From an uncultured Methanosarcinales archaeon (lineage in GTDB: Archaea; Nanobdellota; Nanobdellia; Woesearchaeales; ARS49): a stretch of 45,901 bases of DNA. A program made the position numbers. Shown here one piece after another: positions 24,001 to 30,000 of this stretch; position 1 is the first letter of the stretch; every line of letters starts with the position of its first letter. The stretch lies in the NCBI GenBank assembly GCA_964358315.1, contig CAYHOF010000009.1, forward strand, positions 1 through 45,901. Reading direction: 5' to 3'.

Positions 24001-27000
24001 GATGGTTGTGCCTTTTGGAAGAGCGTGACGAACGTCTCCTGGGGGACCGAGAGTCCTGCTTCGACAAGGCGTCGTGCAAAGAGCGCGCCTTCATTCTCGG
24101 CAGGCGTGTACTGCAGGAGTTGTCCGAGCGTGTACGAGCATAGGATGCCTTCGTTGAGGCGCAGCGCCGCGGGTTTGCCGTTGCGGTGTACGACACCTTC
24201 CTGGACGTTCACGACGATGCCGTCGTTCACGAGCGTGTTGTCGTTTGCCGCAAAACCATGCCGTTGCAGTTCGTGTGCGATGAGCGTCTGGACTGCGGTA
24301 GAAAATGCATGCGTCTTGAGGTCTGGCGCAACGAGGTCATCCTTCTTTATCGGCGTGTGCACGCGGCCAAGGTACTGCTTGACTTTCTGCCTCGCGCGCC
24401 CACCTTCCCAGTGGTTCTCGACGAGGTATGCGTATGCCTTACCACCTATCTTTTTTGTGCGGACAAACACCACAGGTACTCCTCACTTGAGTTCGGATTC
24501 TGCTTCACCGGCGAGTTTCTCCGCCAGCTTGCCGAGGCGTTTGAGCGCGCCTGCCACGGTCTTGCGGGGATTCGCGCCGTCTGTCTCGACGACAAACTGC
24601 GGTTGGCCGAGCAGCGGGTGCTCAAGATGGTACCCTGCGGCCTTGACGTGCTCGTCGCTGTTGAGCTCGGCGCGCAATGCGTTCGTGCACGTGTGCGTGT
24701 CGCCTTCGACGACGAACACGATCCTGTTCTTCTTTTCTTCGAGAATCTTTACTTCCATGAGATGTTCACCACCTTGTTGTCGAGGGTTTCAGGGTCATTT
24801 ATAAATGTTTCGAGCATAGGCACTATGCGTATTGCCTCTTTCTTGGCGCTTCTGGCGCCTTCCAAGGGGTCAGAGCTACTGGTGCTCACTTTCATCCTTT
24901 CCTCCCTTCTTTTGGTCTGTATTGGCGTGGTTTGAGCCAAGGATGCATGATTGTGGTCTCGTCTGCCCTCTGCCTTTGCTCTCATTCCATTGTCGCGGGT
25001 TCATTGTCATCGTGGTTCACCTCGTGGATCCGTTCCTGGACGCTCTAAAACGCCTCTCCGGATAGTGCCTAGCTGCTGAGGCAGCTGACACATGGAACTT
25101 CGTTCCATTGTGCCTAGCTTCTGAAGCGGGCACACAAAACTCTGTTTTGTTGTGCCTAACGTATTTTGGTTGGGTCTTGCGAGGGTGGGTTTTGGCAGGC
25201 TGACGCTCAAAAGCAGCTCTCACGCTCACTCTTTGTTCTGGGGTGCCTAGCTTCTGAGGAAGCTGGCACATGGAACTTCGTTCCATTGTGCCTAACTGCC
25301 GTGGTAGTTGGCATATGGAGCTTCGTTCCATTGTGCCTATCTGAGGAAGCTGGTACATGGAACTAATCTTGTGTTCTAGCCCTTGTTTTTCCACTGTTTC
25401 GCGTTCCCTATCTATATTGTGCCCTTCTGGCCGTTCATAGTGGGTTATTCGGTGGTTTTTGCCATGTTTTGTGCTGGATCTGGGTATCTTGATGGATTCT
25501 GATGGGGTTTTGGTCTTGAAAACGCTGTTTGAACACTCACTTTTTGTGTATGGGTGCCTAACTGCCGTGGCAGTTGGCACATGAAACTTTGTTCCATTGT
25601 GCCTAAGACTGTTGGGTCGTTCCAGTGCGTTTTGGTGGGCATGATTTACACAAAATCTACCGTCTATAAGTTCACTATATGGTCCTATTAGGCGTTTTAA
25701 CGCGATATGGCTCTCTTTCTCGTAAGGAAGGTCTCTGGGCACGAATTCCTCAAAAGCGCCATATGTGGCTTCTAATGTGTTTATAGGCATTAATGGGTTA
25801 TTTTGAAGGTTGGATGGTGAGGATCCTGGTGCTGGCTTGTTTTTTGCTGTTTTCAGGCCTGTTTTTTGGCAGTTGAACCGCTCATTTTTTGCGATCAAAG
25901 GCCCCTGGTTTTCGGACCAATATTGATATGACTTTCTTGTCTCATTTTCGGAACATTGGGCATTGCCGAAGTATGATTTATTTGTCGCATTCTGGTCCGC
26001 AGCATTCTGACTTTTTTGTCCCATTTTTGCCCAGATGGTTGCGATCATAATGGTTGGTGGGTGGCATCTTGTATAAAATGGTTTTGTCCCAGGATAGTCC
26101 CAGTTCAGTCCCATTTCATTCCCAATTGAAATTTAAAAGGTCTTTAAAGTTTAAAATTCATTACTTTAAGACATTTCTCATTCCCAGAATAGTCCCAAGA
26201 TAGTCCCAGGAATGTCCTAGGACGGTCCCGAAATTTGGACAAGGTTTATATAGGGGGTGCGCTTCCGGCAAGCGCATGGTGGACTGGTTCGGGTTGGGGA
26301 AATTGCGCGAGCAGCTCAAGGGCACCGAGGCCTCGTTGCGTGGTTCCATCGAGCAGGTCCGCACCGACCAGGCGAACCTTTCGCAGTGGATTTTTTACCT
26401 CCAAAACGAGAACCGGCAATTGCGCCAGCGCGTCGAGTGGCGGCCTGCGCAGACAGGCCTCAACGAGGAGCAAGTGCGCACTCTGGTGGAGAAGCACGCC
26501 GCGTTCGATATCATCCTTGAACGCATCCACCACATCGAGAACCGCATCAACCAGATCGCGGTGCCGCACGTGCCGAAAGTGGAAGACATCGAGCACCGCG
26601 TGGAGGCCCGGCTGGAGGCGAAACTACGCTCCGAACGGGATGAGGTAATGGGCCAGTTGCGGCTCATCGCCGAGAAGGTGAGCGCGCTTGAGACGCAGCC
26701 GCGCGAACTGGTGCAGGAAGCGCCACTGCGCATCCAGGAACAACCGCAACTGCAGCACGTGCAGACCATCGTTCAGCCGACGTTTTCCAAGCTGCAGCAC
26801 AAGCTGCTCAAGCGCATAGCCAAGCATTCGAAACCTGTCGTGAAAAGTTCGATCCTCACGCTCATCCGCAAGTACGGCCGCATCGCAGGTACCGAGCTGC
26901 GCGAGATGGTGGTGGAAGAGCAACAGTTGTGCAGCAAGAGCTCGTTCTACCGCCTGCTTGAGGAGCTCGAAAAGGAGGGCGCGATCGAGGCAGTGTCCGA

Positions 27001-30000
27001 GGGCAAGGAGAAGATGTTCTTCGACGCGCTCAAGACGAAGAACCGTGTCTGAGGCGCGAAAAACGTAGCGTGTCCGGTGCCATAAACCTTAAAAAGGGGC
27101 GGCGGTACGCAAATGCTTGATTGGGTTGGAAGCAAAGGGGTTTCCAAAGGGGTGGAAGTTCAATGTCAGACGAGTCAGTTCCTGAGACAGTGCTGGTCAG
27201 TGTCGAACAACAAGAGATGTCGGCGCCGCAAGATTCTTTTGCGTCGACAAACGAGGACGCGTACACGCTTGTGGCGGACGTCCTTGGCAAGGTCCGCGAA
27301 GAGCTTGATGATCATCGCGAAGCCATCAACGAAAACACCAACGAAATCACGCTCAACCAGGAATTTCTCAACAGCCTTTCAAGTAGGATCGACACGCTCA
27401 CTTCACGCATCGACGAACTCACGCTGCTCGTCAAGTGCGGCAGCCAACCTGCGAAGCAGGAATGGCAGATCGCGCCGCTCACCGATCGCGAAAAAGAGGT
27501 CTTCCATGCGCTCTACGTCGTGAGCGAGGAACGCAACAATGCCGCGACGTACAAGGAGCTCGCGCAGAAGTTGGGCGCGAGCGAGGCGTCCGTGTCCGCG
27601 TTCGTGACGAGCTTTGTCGCGAAGGGCATCCCGATCGTCAAGAAGTACGCGAACGGTCGTGCGTACGTCGGCCTGGACGTGCAGTTCAGGCATGCGCAGG
27701 CGAAGAACAATATCGTCGGGATCAACACGCTGCTCACGTACTGGCAGCGCTAGTCCGCTTTGAGCTTGTCGCGTTTGATCTCGTTCTGCAAGCGTTCGAT
27801 GACGCGGAAACTCTCGCCGACGTGGCCGTGCAGGATGGTCTCTGCCTTGCGGAACGCGCCTTCGAGATTGGTGCCGTTCAGCTCGTAGCCGATCACGACC
27901 TTGCCGCCTGCGACGAACGACGTTTTCTTGAGGATGCCAAGGTCAAGCCAGCGGTGCAGGTACTCGTACATGGTCTGGCGAGCGATGCCGGCGAACGCGC
28001 CCATGTCCTCGACAGGCATCACTGCCGCTTCGGGCTTGCGGTCCCGGTTCGCCGTCTTTTTGCGTTCGTACAGCTCGAGGAGGAGCGTGTGCATCTTCGC
28101 CATGCCGTCTTGCTTGCGCGGGAGCAGGCCGAAGCGTGCGAGCAGCACGCGGGCAAGCTCTTCTGTCGACGCATCCGGCAACGCCTCACTTCCTTCGAGA
28201 ACGAACTTCATTGACTGTGCCGAGATGCCTCGTCCCTTTAAGCGTTTCGGTCGTTTTGCCGACAACGTTTTGGGGTTATCTGAAAACTATAAGTTATCGC
28301 TTTCGACAACACTATGTAATTTTCCTCAGCAAACCCTGAAATCCGGGGTGTCCCTATGCTTGATTTCCTTCATGCGACAGCATTAGGGGCACCAGGAGAT
28401 GACTTTTTGTCAGGAACGGGTCAAACCACGTGGTTGTGAGTGCGGATCGGGCCTGAAAACTGCCCAGAACCACTGAAAATTGTTCGTTCTCTAATTATCC
28501 CGACGGGTTTCAGGAACCGTGTTTTGGTGGTGTTGTTCCCAAACCAGCGCTTTCACGAATTTTCCCTGCGCTGTTGGGAATTTCCCTGATTTTCTGTTTT
28601 TTCGCCGACAAACGCGGTGACGGGGGTCGGATCGTCGCATCCGGGTGCCACGGCAAAACTTCCGAAAAGATGCACGAATCTGGCGATTCTGTTGAAATAC
28701 CTGACAATTTTTAGTACCTGCAAACCAGGCGCCTAGCGCCCCGTCAAACCCCGGAATGGGTGGATGCATTCTCCGTCGGAATTTTGCGCGTATCGGCGTT
28801 CTAATGGTGTCTGATCCACATGTTACGTGATGGGTTCGCAGTGCGCGCGAAACGTGAAAAAATCATGGTAGTGATTGGTTGGGATGGCGTGCGTGCGCTC
28901 ATGAATCTATCGTCGGAGAATATTTAAAAGATGTTGCATATAAGCTATATTTTGTGTAATAATTGTAATGATGATATCTTCGTATAATACTTTTTGAGAT
29001 AGTTATTTCATAAATACTGTTACAAGAAACATATGATGATAAGATTGTCTTCCAATGATTATCTCTGAAAGATTATTTTCAAGAATATCATGGAAGGCTA
29101 CTTTTTTAATAATTTTTGTATGGAAATTAATATCTGTGGGCATCAAAAAATGGCAAAAAGTGAGAGTTCGAGCACTTCTGGGACGTATGGGGTGGTGTGG
29201 TGGAAGATTTGGAAGGATCTCCTCGCGGCAAGGGCATGTATTTTGTGGGTGCGCTTCGACAAAATTAATCTGAACAACACGTTCGAACAGCTGTCGAGTG
29301 GGATCTTGCGGGTGTGGTGAGTCCTACAAGAACAGATGCTTGGCAGCGACAATTCAGGTTCCCCGAAGAGGTTAGCAGTTACAAGAAAATGTGACCAAAA
29401 GTGATATAGGCACCATCAGGATGGTGCTATTTTGCTGTTTAGTGAGGGTTTGACAGCATCAAACAGGGAAGCCATGCAATGGGCCTCTCACAGGCGCATA
29501 CTTGCGCTGTAAGCGGGCGTAGACAGTCATAGGACCGCCTGGGACATGAATTAATCTGGAAGCGTCCATGATTGCGCAGGCACTACCTTCCTGAGGCATG
29601 TTGGTGCGTATCGTGGCTGCAAAGTGAGCGTCACGTCCGTCATTCAACGGTCGCCACTGATCCAGTGGATGTTGTTCAGGTTCACACGCTATCTTGAATT
29701 TCAGGGCGGCGGCCATGACTTTTGTGTAGTAGGGTGATGTGCTTGTCATCATTGTTCGTAACCCGTCGTAAAAGTTCGCACACCATTTGCGGACTTCTGC
29801 TTGGAGTTCACGTCCAGATGGTTTTGTGATGCCTAACTGTTCGAGGTCTTTTGCAGACGGCAGAAGGTCAATATATTCGCGCGCGATCCGTTTGAATCTT
29901 TCTGCTTCGTTGTTGTCAACCTTCTTGTTGGCCTTCGTATTGCCGAGATAGATGAGTTTCACATCGTGATCGGCAGCATACGTGTTGCACACATTTTGTT

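What a model noticed while it worked through the whole genome (the two positions that open the first line are those of the whole stretch)
26049..27753. parC-like array of 11-bp repeats heading a Woesearchaeales-wide two-gene HTH module
Two blocks of helically phased ~11-bp direct repeats (core (A)TAGTCCCA/CATTCCCA) flank an AT-rich core directly upstream of two unannotated genes (258 and 196 aa), each a coiled coil plus C-terminal HTH, conserved across the order. I read it as a centromere-like site (as plasmid R1 parC/ParR or tubC/TubR-TubY) with its binding proteins, i.e. an unrecognised chromosome-partition module of Woesearchaeales. New: a type of archaeal centromere unlike SegAB.
Evidence so far: Array is the densest such window in the genome (9 cores in 250 bp; next unrelated window 4; call 161). 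g746 found in 35 of 41 order genomes, single copy; g745 precedes it in 14 of 24 loci and in those loci 5-16 cores cluster upstream of g745, while loci without g745 show 1-5; a Xer-type recombinase is within 1.5 kb in 8 of 24. HTH by profile search (GerE/MarR-type, E 1.6e-4; call 134; Fur-like for g745, call 122). In three near-complete chromosomes the module lies about a fifth to a quarter of the genome from cdc6.
(Added by a program. Inside this text positions count along the whole contig: contig position 1 is position 1 of the stretch shown here. "Call 12" and the like, gene names such as g00115 and contig names such as C1 are that model's own, and its searches are not shown. The text may have been shortened before it was handed on; [...] marks where a part breaks off. 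The agent that wrote the report below was given it as the finding of a first reader that could run no searches.)

Follow-up and report, generated by a model that had tools for sequence, protein, structure and literature searches.

The report
Motor-less chromosome-anchoring repeat array
A tiny DPANN archaeon carries a real array of 11-base DNA repeats that is likely coated by the winged-helix protein encoded beside it, and because many relatives keep this unit next to a XerA recombinase and a predicted chromosome-untangling (dif) site, it likely serves as a motor-less anchor that organises the chromosome, not as a plasmid-type parC centromere or the main replication origin.

Summary
The array is real: nine 11-bp-phased cores in two blocks, the densest in the genome. 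g746 is order-wide (129 of 151 genomes). Close g745 occurs in only 50 of 151, and the array follows g745, not g746. Repeat core and g745 recognition helix change together in three classes, so g745 likely reads the array. The array keeps its place when g745 is inverted (6 of 39). The locus is larger than reported: mirror-oriented AAAGTGAG boxes, an AT-rich core, a third wHTH gene, and in relatives often XerA with a dif-like site (absent here). Sister orders keep the pair within 10 kb of cdc6 (9 of 16); paralogues' arrays sit by ORBs. This genome's ORB origin lies elsewhere, and two chromosomes show no skew switch at the module. Best reading (0.45): a motor-less, possibly membrane-tethered chromosome anchor, built like R388 stbS/StbA. 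Rivals: replication control (0.22), operator hub (0.20), parC/ParR with motor (0.06). Binding and function are untested. The scan noted this system before on other DNA (e1-5060008, e1-1429894); my paper searches found no description.

The parts
26086..26124 (+). Array block 1: four cores [GT]TCCCA at 11-bp spacing
26125..26180 (.). AT-rich spacer between the blocks. In relatives it often carries a CGTCGA-type word; no ORB here
26181..26230 (+). Array block 2: five cores at 11-bp spacing, the last two degenerate
25939..26034 (+). Outlying and degenerate cores (25939, 25984, 26018, 26029)
26245..26252 (+). TATA-like box TTTATATA, 14 bp after the last core and 23 bp before the g745 start (promoter role inferred)
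26276..27052 (+). g745, 258 aa: aromatic-basic N-terminal cap, long helices, C-terminal wHTH with helix SKSSFYR; likely reader of the array
27163..27753 (+). g746, 196 aa: one long helix (27-93) plus HTH_11/MarR-like wHTH; order-wide; DNA target unknown
27750..28211 (-). g747, 153 aa, a third wHTH gene (weak HTH_Crp_2), convergent on g746; in 15 of 42 loci
28255..28790 (.). Scattered CCGAC words upstream of g747, more frequent in loci that have g747 (likely its operator)
   Evidence: median 2 (0-7) in 15 loci with g747, median 0 (0-2) in 27 without
24885..24892 (+). Oriented box CTCACTTT, left flank
25536..25543 (+). Oriented box CTCACTTT, left flank
25065..25605 (+). Eight GTGCCTA words inside about 45-bp hairpin units found only here in the genome; mirror image of the conserved TAGGCAC on the right flank
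28934..29133 (.). AT-rich core (77% A+T against 43% for the genome), fourth most AT-rich 200-bp window of the genome
28977..28987 (+). One arm of a dif-like site with no matching second arm; possible relic (speculative)
29157..29164 (-). Oriented box, right flank, in mirror orientation, just beyond the AT-rich core
29407..29413 (+). TAGGCAC word, conserved to the right of the AT-rich core
29621..29628 (-). Oriented box, right flank
30517..30524 (-). Oriented box, right flank, inside the PAC2 gene
23994..24473 (-). Unannotated 159-aa gene ('F8', my label), no Pfam family; within 10 kb in 17 of 22 g745 loci and 0 of 20 others; also beside the pair in one sister-order locus

Best explanation
The array is likely a motor-less, centromere-like docking site that g745 is predicted to coat through its winged helix, one turn of DNA per repeat, and that would be tethered to the membrane by g745's aromatic-basic N-terminus, so anchoring a chromosome-maintenance locus that in many relatives also holds XerA and a dif-like site. 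SHOWN: the array and its phasing; its tie to the g745 family; co-variation of core and recognition helix; a fixed position whichever way g745 faces; the mirror-oriented boxes and AT-rich core; linkage to Xer and dif-like sites in relatives; linkage to ORBs and cdc6 in paralogues and sister orders. INFERRED: direct and cooperative binding; membrane attachment; a role in positioning or segregating this chromosome region; autorepression of g745 as a side role where the array abuts its TATA box. g746 and g747 probably read other words of the locus. The unit likely descends from an origin-flanking block that Woesearchaeales detached from cdc6.
For: 1) The array follows g745. A three-core pattern matches 36 of 50 genomes with close g745 (35 within 400 bp of the gene) and 6 of 101 others; the reversed control matches once in 12 genomes. 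2) Helix and core change together: S[KR]S[ST] goes with [GT]TCCCA in 18 of 20 readable g745 loci and in 2 of 3 paralogue loci; S[KR]A[TS] with GTCTCA in 8 of 8; GRT with GT[TC]CGG in 6 of 6. One SKSS/TCCCA locus nests inside the SKA clade (support 96, quick tree). 3) In 22 of 22 g745 loci the array lies about 590-1330 bp upstream of g746, also in the 5 where g745 is inverted. 4) Two blocks on an 11-bp cycle upstream of the binder's gene, with no NTPase needed, is the layout of R388 stbS/StbA (passages). 5) N-terminal M-x(0-4)-[FW]-x(0-3)-[KR] in 131 of 138 family members against 35 of 276 neighbours, and in 5 of 5 sister-order homologues. 6) Of 22 listed dif-like sites with at most 2 mismatches, 11 lie within 6 kb of g746; 6 of 13 after removing five sites seen before the pattern was written and genomes without a g746 hit. 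Around 12 dif-bearing loci 57 boxes show the mirror arrangement and 6 the opposite. 7) Archaea lack FtsK (passage, PMC8371274), so another way to position dif is expected. 8) Not the main origin: the genome has an inverted ORB pair around a 90% A+T stretch beside cdc6 on contig C2.
Against: No binding, localisation or phenotype data exist. The N-terminal cap is not a strongly amphipathic helix (mean moment 0.27, window copy 0.23), so membrane binding rests on a motif. The window's genome lacks canonical XerA and a full dif, and 7 of 22 g745 loci have no Xer gene within about 10 kb; 6 of the 15 that do carry a short 195-217 aa paralogue. Close g745 is not found in 101 of 151 genomes, and 70 of 151 have no family hit at E<=1e-8, which is patchy for an essential centromere. 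The module is at neither origin nor terminus by skew in G097 and G077. In 33 of 39 loci the array lies at the 5' end of g745, often just before a TATA-like box, as an operator would. The co-variation classes are largely clades, so they count as about three or four events, not 36. Fold matches do not separate centromere binders (AspA, TubR) from MarR/ArsR regulators.
Confidence: 0.45

Rival explanations
1. Replication control. The locus is a detached origin flank: a dormant or accessory non-ORB origin (WhiP/oriC3-like, with the AT-rich core as unwinding element between mirror boxes), an initiator-titration site, or a local fork trap.
For: 20 of 46 weaker g745-family hits have a strict ORB within 500 bp, and in the 9 such loci read the ORBs lie inside or abut the same kind of array. 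In other orders of the class the g745-like gene is within 10 kb of cdc6 in 9 of 16 genomes (9 of 10 on the same contig), and a strict ORB lies inside the g746-like gene in 3 of 5. In 16 of 42 loci the most AT-rich 200 bp lie downstream of g746 with a box 51-255 bp to the right. A C-terminal PIP-like motif is in 51 of 146 g746 relatives against 3 of 276 controls. WhiP binds repeats inside its own gene and defines oriC3 (passages).
Against: 0 of 50 close g745 loci have a listed ORB within 5 kb (4 ORB matches were not listed). No skew switch at the module in G097 (-0.40, -0.33, -0.29 across it) or G077; 7 of 10 g745 loci keep one sign on both sides; G016 is ambiguous. The genome has a textbook origin elsewhere. 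The PIP-like motif is in only 7 of 42 one-per-genome loci, and the window's g746 lacks its Gln. The boxes are not polarised genome-wide in four sampled chromosomes.
Confidence: 0.22
2. A transcriptional control hub. g745 binds the array as a cooperative repressor of g745-g746 and of the divergent methyltransferase-rpoL-F8 operon; g746 and g747 are ordinary regulators, and the link to xerA/dif is gene-order inertia.
For: The last repeat lies 14 bp before a TATA-like box here, and the array is at the 5' end of g745 in 33 of 39 loci. All three proteins are generic wHTH folds with MarR/ArsR/Fur matches on top. rpoL and a methyltransferase face away from the array in most loci. StbA also represses promoters through two or three repeats.
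Against: The array stays put at the 3' end of g745 in 6 inversions. In one clade it lies inside the linker codons of the gene. Five to fourteen phased cores, a single array per genome, mirror boxes over 5 kb and an AT-rich core exceed what a simple operator needs. The conserved N-terminal cap and the long helices are left unexplained.
Confidence: 0.2
3. A true parC/ParR- or tubC/TubR-type centromere whose motor is encoded elsewhere on the chromosome.
For: Two blocks of 11-bp repeats upstream of a DNA-binding gene. AspA (pNOB8 centromere binder) is among the Foldseek matches of both proteins and TubR among those of g745. ParA/MinD-type genes exist in 4 of 5 genomes checked.
Against: No motor was recognised among the conserved neighbours of 42 loci (only some were Pfam-scanned). 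The ParA-type genes are far away or on other contigs, and G097 has none at E<=1e-8. The readers are wHTH, not ribbon-helix-helix as ParR (recalled). The fold matches are tied with many regulators.
Confidence: 0.06

Closest known systems
Plasmid R388 stbS / StbA (bioRxiv 10.1101/2022.04.29.490116; passages read)
   Same: Two sets of direct repeats on an 11-bp cycle in the promoter region of the binder's gene; an HTH binder; segregation without a system-encoded NTPase; autorepression alongside.
   Different: StbA has its HTH at the N-terminus; g745 has it at the C-terminus behind long helices. The repeat sequence is unrelated, the locus is chromosomal and archaeal, and it adds boxes, an AT-rich core and Xer/dif. 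No homology to StbA was tested directly.
tubC / TubR / TubY, type III partition (PMC7762940; abstract read)
   Same: A repeat centromere, a wHTH binder, and an HTH plus coiled-coil partner with a membrane-binding terminal tail.
   Different: No TubZ-like motor recognised at the locus; domain order reversed; membrane binding of g745 is only predicted from a motif.
Plasmid R1 parC / ParR / ParM (recalled, no call)
   Same: Two blocks of 11-bp repeats around a spacer.
   Different: ParR is a ribbon-helix-helix protein and needs ParM. Here the binder is a wHTH, no actin was recognised at the locus, and the TATA box lies after the second block, not in the spacer.
Sulfolobus SegAB (PMC11381335; passages) and pNOB8 AspA (PDB titles)
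   Same: An archaeal DNA binder with sites upstream of its own operon; AspA is a wHTH and appears among the fold matches.
   Different: SegB sites are short palindromes and the system carries a ParA-type ATPase. Neither holds here.
Archaeal XerA / dif and polar ASPS or KOPS words (PMC2958812, PMC8371274, PMC10331603; passages)
   Same: 11-6-11 inverted repeat sites next to a XerA-type gene in relatives; oriented words arranged around the site.
   Different: In Thermococcales dif is not next to xerA and the polar words are genome-wide. Here the boxes are local (within about 4 kb), and in sister orders 5 of 6 dif-like sites lie within 17 kb of cdc6.
Sulfolobus oriC3 / WhiP and ucm / UBP (PMC3607249 passages; PMC12141716 abstract, introduction and discussion)
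   Same: A wHTH gene with repeats in or beside it at an origin; accessory sequence-specific binders at archaeal origins.
   Different: WhiP is a tandem wHTH Rep/Cdt1-like protein; g745 and g746 have one wHTH each. No skew switch supports firing at this copy.

Membership tests
Type II/III plasmid partition (parC-ParR-ParM, tubC-TubR-TubZ) | Tandem repeat centromere, helically phased | tested here: met
   (184 of the gaps between cores in 39 loci are 11 bp)
Type II/III plasmid partition (parC-ParR-ParM, tubC-TubR-TubZ) | Actin- or tubulin-like motor encoded with the binder | tested here: not met
   The genes flanking the array in the window are rpoL, g745, g746 and g747; no motor among the families shared by the 42 loci. 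Actin and tubulin genes elsewhere in the genome were not searched.
Type II/III plasmid partition (parC-ParR-ParM, tubC-TubR-TubZ) | Binder homologous to ParR or TubR | tested here: inconclusive
   wHTH fold. TubR is a weak row (E 0.029) among many wHTH matches.
SegAB / AspA-ParB-ParA | ParA-type Walker ATPase in the operon | tested here: not met
   PF13614 hits in 4 of 5 genomes, none at the locus
SegAB / AspA-ParB-ParA | Short palindromic centromere sites | tested here: not met
   The sites here are direct 11-bp repeats; some relatives mix orientations
StbA / stbS single-protein segregation (works-like test) | Two sets of repeats on an 11-bp cycle at the binder's promoter | tested here: met
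StbA / stbS single-protein segregation (works-like test) | N-terminal StbA HTH domain | tested here: not met
   The wHTH is C-terminal in both proteins; no StbA-named family among the Pfam or NCBIfam rows
StbA / stbS single-protein segregation (works-like test) | Site plus protein stabilise a replicon without an NTPase | not testable with these tools
   needs a stability assay
Orc1-dependent archaeal origin (oriC1) | Inverted ORBs around an AT-rich element | tested here: not met
   The only ORBs of the genome are on C2 beside cdc6; 0 of 50 close g745 loci have a listed ORB within 5 kb
Any active bidirectional origin (including WhiP/oriC3-like) | Strand-skew switch at the locus | tested here: inconclusive
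   No switch in G097 and G077, ambiguous in G016, from partial sampling. A weak or conditional origin would leave no switch.
Any active bidirectional origin (including WhiP/oriC3-like) | AT-rich element flanked by inverted boxes | tested here: inconclusive
   An AT-rich core with a right-hand box in 16 of 42 loci, with a left-hand box within 700 bp in 6 of these; only the right-hand box is near in the window
XerA / dif locus | XerA gene and 11-6-11 dif site | tested here: not met
   Not found in the window's genome (96% complete). Met in relatives: Xer gene in 15 of 22 g745 loci, a dif-like site in 9 of those 15.
KOPS / ASPS polar words | Genome-wide polarity towards dif | tested here: not met
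   The boxes are rare and unpolarised in 20-kb samples of four chromosomes and cluster at the locus
Membrane-tethered DNA binders (TubY; Noc and RacA recalled) | Terminal amphipathic membrane-binding helix | tested here: inconclusive
   Aromatic-basic cap in 131 of 138 against 35 of 276, but a low helical moment

The most novel reading that the evidence does not exclude
Nanoarchaeia have their own chromosome-capture system that replaces FtsK/KOPS and ParABS. A membrane-anchored g745 coat on the phased array, together with g746 and the mirror-oriented boxes, holds and orients the XerA/dif region for resolution and segregation without any motor. The block began beside oriC, where sister orders still keep dif, an ORB and the gene pair together, and Woesearchaeales moved it away while paralogues kept array-wrapped ORBs.
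Probability: 0.25. Interest if true: 0.9.

Novelty: new variant of a known kind. Interest (0 to 1): 0.7.

Why it matters
How DPANN archaea segregate chromosomes, and how any archaeon positions Xer/dif without FtsK, are open questions. This locus supplies a named protein, a named site and a three-way recognition code (helix residues against repeat core) that can be tested by swap experiments in vitro, with no culture of the organism. It would be a chromosomal, archaeal case of the motor-less segregation described for plasmids R388 and pSK1. It also warns that cdc6, ORB clusters and dif are not placed in these genomes as in model archaea.

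Tried and rejected
Main origin: rejected; the ORB pair and the most AT-rich stretch are beside cdc6 on C2. Terminus or origin by skew: no switch in G097 or G077; G016 unclear; an 'away versus toward' test on 16 core loci gave p=0.10 and is confounded by gene orientation; the strand-balanced test was flat. Wider skew sampling on six more long contigs could not be done, so the test rests on three chromosomes. KOPS-like genome-wide polarity: not seen. 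A pattern joining ATTGAAA to the box matched 37 of 151 genomes, mostly away from the locus and with control hits, so it is not used. RNA genes: none in window 23000-31000; tRNAs in only 2 of 27 loci. The 365-aa ORF over the left flank has no Pfam match and is treated as spurious. Known families: none over cut-off for g745, g746, g747 or F8; the Atlas gave only hypothetical Nanobdellota or Woesearchaeota clusters. g745 versus g746 homology: weak (probability 46%, E 2e-4). g745-g746 complex prediction returned no verdict (score 0.31, mark 0.32) and is not used either way. PCNA binding by g746: motif only, not pursued beyond locating PCNA. Whether the inversions of g745 are one event: not settled (two changes on a quick tree, one not excluded). 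F8 as reader of the boxes: unlikely, since G017 has six boxes and no F8 hit.

Full report
OBSERVATION. The window (contig C9 of a 1.40-Mb, 57% G+C, 96% complete genome) holds nine cores [GT]TCC[CT][AG] in two blocks of four and five, 11 bp apart within each block. Shuffles give 1.06 on average and at most 5. No other 250-bp window of the genome comes close (8 against 4, or 10 against 6). A TATA-like box follows, then g745 (258 aa) and g746 (196 aa). Both are modelled as long helices plus a C-terminal winged helix, with only generic wHTH matches and no family over cut-off. Named relatives are Woesearchaeota or Nanoarchaeota hypothetical proteins.

DISTRIBUTION. In one even sample of 151 order genomes, g746 is found in 129. 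Close g745 (E<=1e-35) is found in 50, and 49 of these lie beside g746. A further 31 genomes have only weaker family hits, and 70 have none at E<=1e-8. A pattern of three phased cores matches 36 of the 50 and 6 of the other 101; the reversed control matches once in 12 genomes. Genomes are kin and incomplete, so 'not found' is not 'absent'.

WHO READS THE ARRAY. I mapped 42 neighbourhoods of up to 20 kb, 22 with g745 and 20 without, chosen for long contigs. All 22 have 5-14 cores about 590-1330 bp upstream of g746. None of the 20 has such a cluster at that place. In 5 of the 22 (6 of 39) g745 is inverted and the array stays where it was, at the gene's 3' end. I then read 19 of the 46 weaker family hits, plus one array-only place. 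Their recognition helix and repeat core change together: S[KR]S[ST] with [GT]TCCCA (18 of 20 readable close loci, 2 of 3 paralogue loci), S[KR]A[TS] with GTCTCA (8 of 8), GRT with GT[TC]CGG (6 of 6, with repeats running into the linker codons). Two of the 19 had no readable helix. The classes are mostly clades, so this is a few events, but one SKSS/TCCCA locus nests among SKA proteins (quick tree). These paralogue loci have no g746 beside them. g745 is therefore the likely reader; binding itself is untested.

THE LOCUS IS LARGER. An earlier scan note led me to test an 8-bp box that also showed. In the 22 g745 loci it reads CTCACTTT 97 times and never the reverse at 1-3 kb upstream of g746, and mostly the reverse (40 against 10) at 1-5 kb downstream. 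It is rare and unpolarised in 20-kb samples of four chromosomes. A second word (GTGCCTA/TAGGCAC) is mirrored in the window. In 16 of 42 loci the most AT-rich 200 bp lie downstream of g746 with a box just to the right; in the window this is 28934-29133. A third wHTH gene, g747, is in 15 of 42 loci with its own CCGAC words. A Xer-family gene is in 15 of 22 and 4 of 20 loci; 6 of the 15 are short paralogues. dif-like 11-6-11 sites lie beside 12 of these 19 Xer genes, but my consensus came from such sites. The independent check: 11 of 22 listed sites with at most 2 mismatches lie within 6 kb of g746, or 6 of 13 after removing five sites seen earlier and genomes without a g746 hit (22 matches were unlisted; 3-mismatch matches are no better than the control). 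Around 12 dif-bearing loci 57 boxes have the mirror arrangement and 6 the opposite. Against this link: the window's genome has no canonical XerA and only one dif-like arm.

ORIGIN LINK. 20 of 46 weaker hits have a strict ORB within 500 bp, against 0 of 50 close g745 loci within 5 kb. In other orders of the class, 16 of the 34 sampled genomes have a g745-like gene. In 5 of 5 read, it faces a g746-like gene; a strict ORB lies inside the latter in 3, the boxes recur, and XerA and F8 each adjoin one locus. The gene is within 10 kb of cdc6 in 9 of 16 genomes, 33 kb away in one, on another contig in five, and one had no cdc6 hit; 5 of 6 dif-like sites there lie within 17 kb of cdc6. The window's copy is not the main origin: an inverted ORB pair around a 90% A+T stretch sits beside cdc6 on C2. 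Fourfold-site skew keeps its sign across the module in G097 (21 samples of 20 kb) and G077 (seven samples) and is near zero in G016 (20 samples). The module lies about 18-36% of the genome from cdc6 in four genomes.

MECHANISM. Shown: array, reader link, fixed position, surrounding elements. Inferred: g745 binds one face of the helix cooperatively, as StbA does on its 11-bp cycle (passages), and its N-terminal cap (131 of 138 against 35 of 276) docks on the membrane as TubY's tail does (abstract; Noc and RacA are recalled, no call). The cap's helical moment is low, so this step is weak. No motor was recognised at the locus; ParA-type genes lie elsewhere in 4 of 5 genomes and SMC is in 5 of 5. 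Since archaea lack FtsK, an anchor beside dif is plausible. I give this 0.45, replication control 0.22, an operator hub 0.20 and a motor-driven parC type 0.06. These roles are not exclusive: StbA both represses and segregates.

NOVELTY. It works like stbS/StbA but fails membership of every family where a defining feature could be tested. Paper searches for Woesearchaeota with origin of replication, DPANN with origin or iteron (18), archaea with centromere, DPANN and segregation (76), Nanoarchaeota or Woesearchaeota with oriC or ORB (104), DPANN with XerA and dif (127, no papers) and Pacearchaeota with ORB and winged helix (130) gave no description in the listings. The library lacks most subscription papers. 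The complete-genome preprint 10.64898/2026.05.13.725050 (passages and one section) takes ORC1 as the origin and has no occurrence of 'GC skew', 'segregation' or 'ORB'; it mentions a single-copy wHTH orthogroup, and its supplements, which I could not see, may list these genes. Other papers seen: PMC12141716 (abstract, introduction, discussion), PMC11381335, PMC2958812, PMC3607249, PMC10331603, PMC8371274 and 10.1101/2022.04.29.490116 (passages), PMC7762940 (abstract). No supplements were read. Earlier scan notes describe the same array beside dif in another Woesearchaeote and the origin-side pair in sister orders; they are not independent evidence.

VERDICT. Observation largely right; 'order-wide two-gene parC module' overstated. 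Real, conserved at class level, not found in print, with a testable recognition code and an unproven function. Interest 0.7.

Noticed in passing
G000 contig C2:69342-70985 (outside the window): Textbook origin: inverted ORB pair around the most AT-rich stretch of the genome, next to cdc6 and two large downstream genes that look like the PolD subunits.
   Followed up: yes
G220:C1:288416, G211:C1:103162, G176:C20:11967, G157:C1:49884, G155:C3:20851: In other orders of the class, dif-like sites lie 8-16 kb from cdc6, also in a single-contig genome, not at the far side of the chromosome.
   Followed up: partly
L123, L124, L125, L128, L129, L133-L136: Short g745 paralogues without the N-terminal cap sit beside one or two ORBs set in or against 11-bp arrays; the G-string often runs straight into the first repeat. 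They lie far from cdc6 (about 200 kb in G096 and G084).
   Followed up: partly
L121, L122, L127, L130, L131, L132, L137: A diverged g745 clade carries its repeats inside the linker codons; L130 joins a g745-like N-terminus to a g746-like wHTH.
   Followed up: partly
G016 and G097 whole chromosomes (20-kb samples): Strand skew is lopsided: strong over one half and near zero over the other. In G084 and G097 the sign change at cdc6 is opposite to that in G016 and G096. Could be assembly, inversion or unusual replication.
   Followed up: no
window 25060-25610: About eight 45-bp double-hairpin units built around GTGCCTA, found nowhere else in the genome; relatives have a methyltransferase gene at this place.
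   Followed up: partly
window 27700-27750 and homologues: About a third of aligned g746 relatives end in a PIP-box-like motif (51 of 146; 7 of 42 one per genome); the window copy lacks the Gln.
   Followed up: partly
window 23994-24473: F8, a family without Pfam match in 88 of 151 order genomes, with a basic N-terminus; travels with g745.
   Followed up: partly
G000 contig C6:40360-43835: The smc gene is matched in two frames (possible frameshift or assembly error).
   Followed up: no
L084, L088, L089, L096, L097, L098, L099, L119: Xer-like paralogues with a different tail (seven of 195-217 aa, one of 316 aa) take the slot of XerA beside g746; three have a dif-like site upstream.
   Followed up: no
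window 31045-35052: Two tandem paralogous membrane proteins with long coiled coils (742 and 578 aa) sharing an N-terminal domain.
   Followed up: no
window 3692-3891: Second most AT-rich 200-bp window of the genome (80% A+T), not examined.
   Followed up: no
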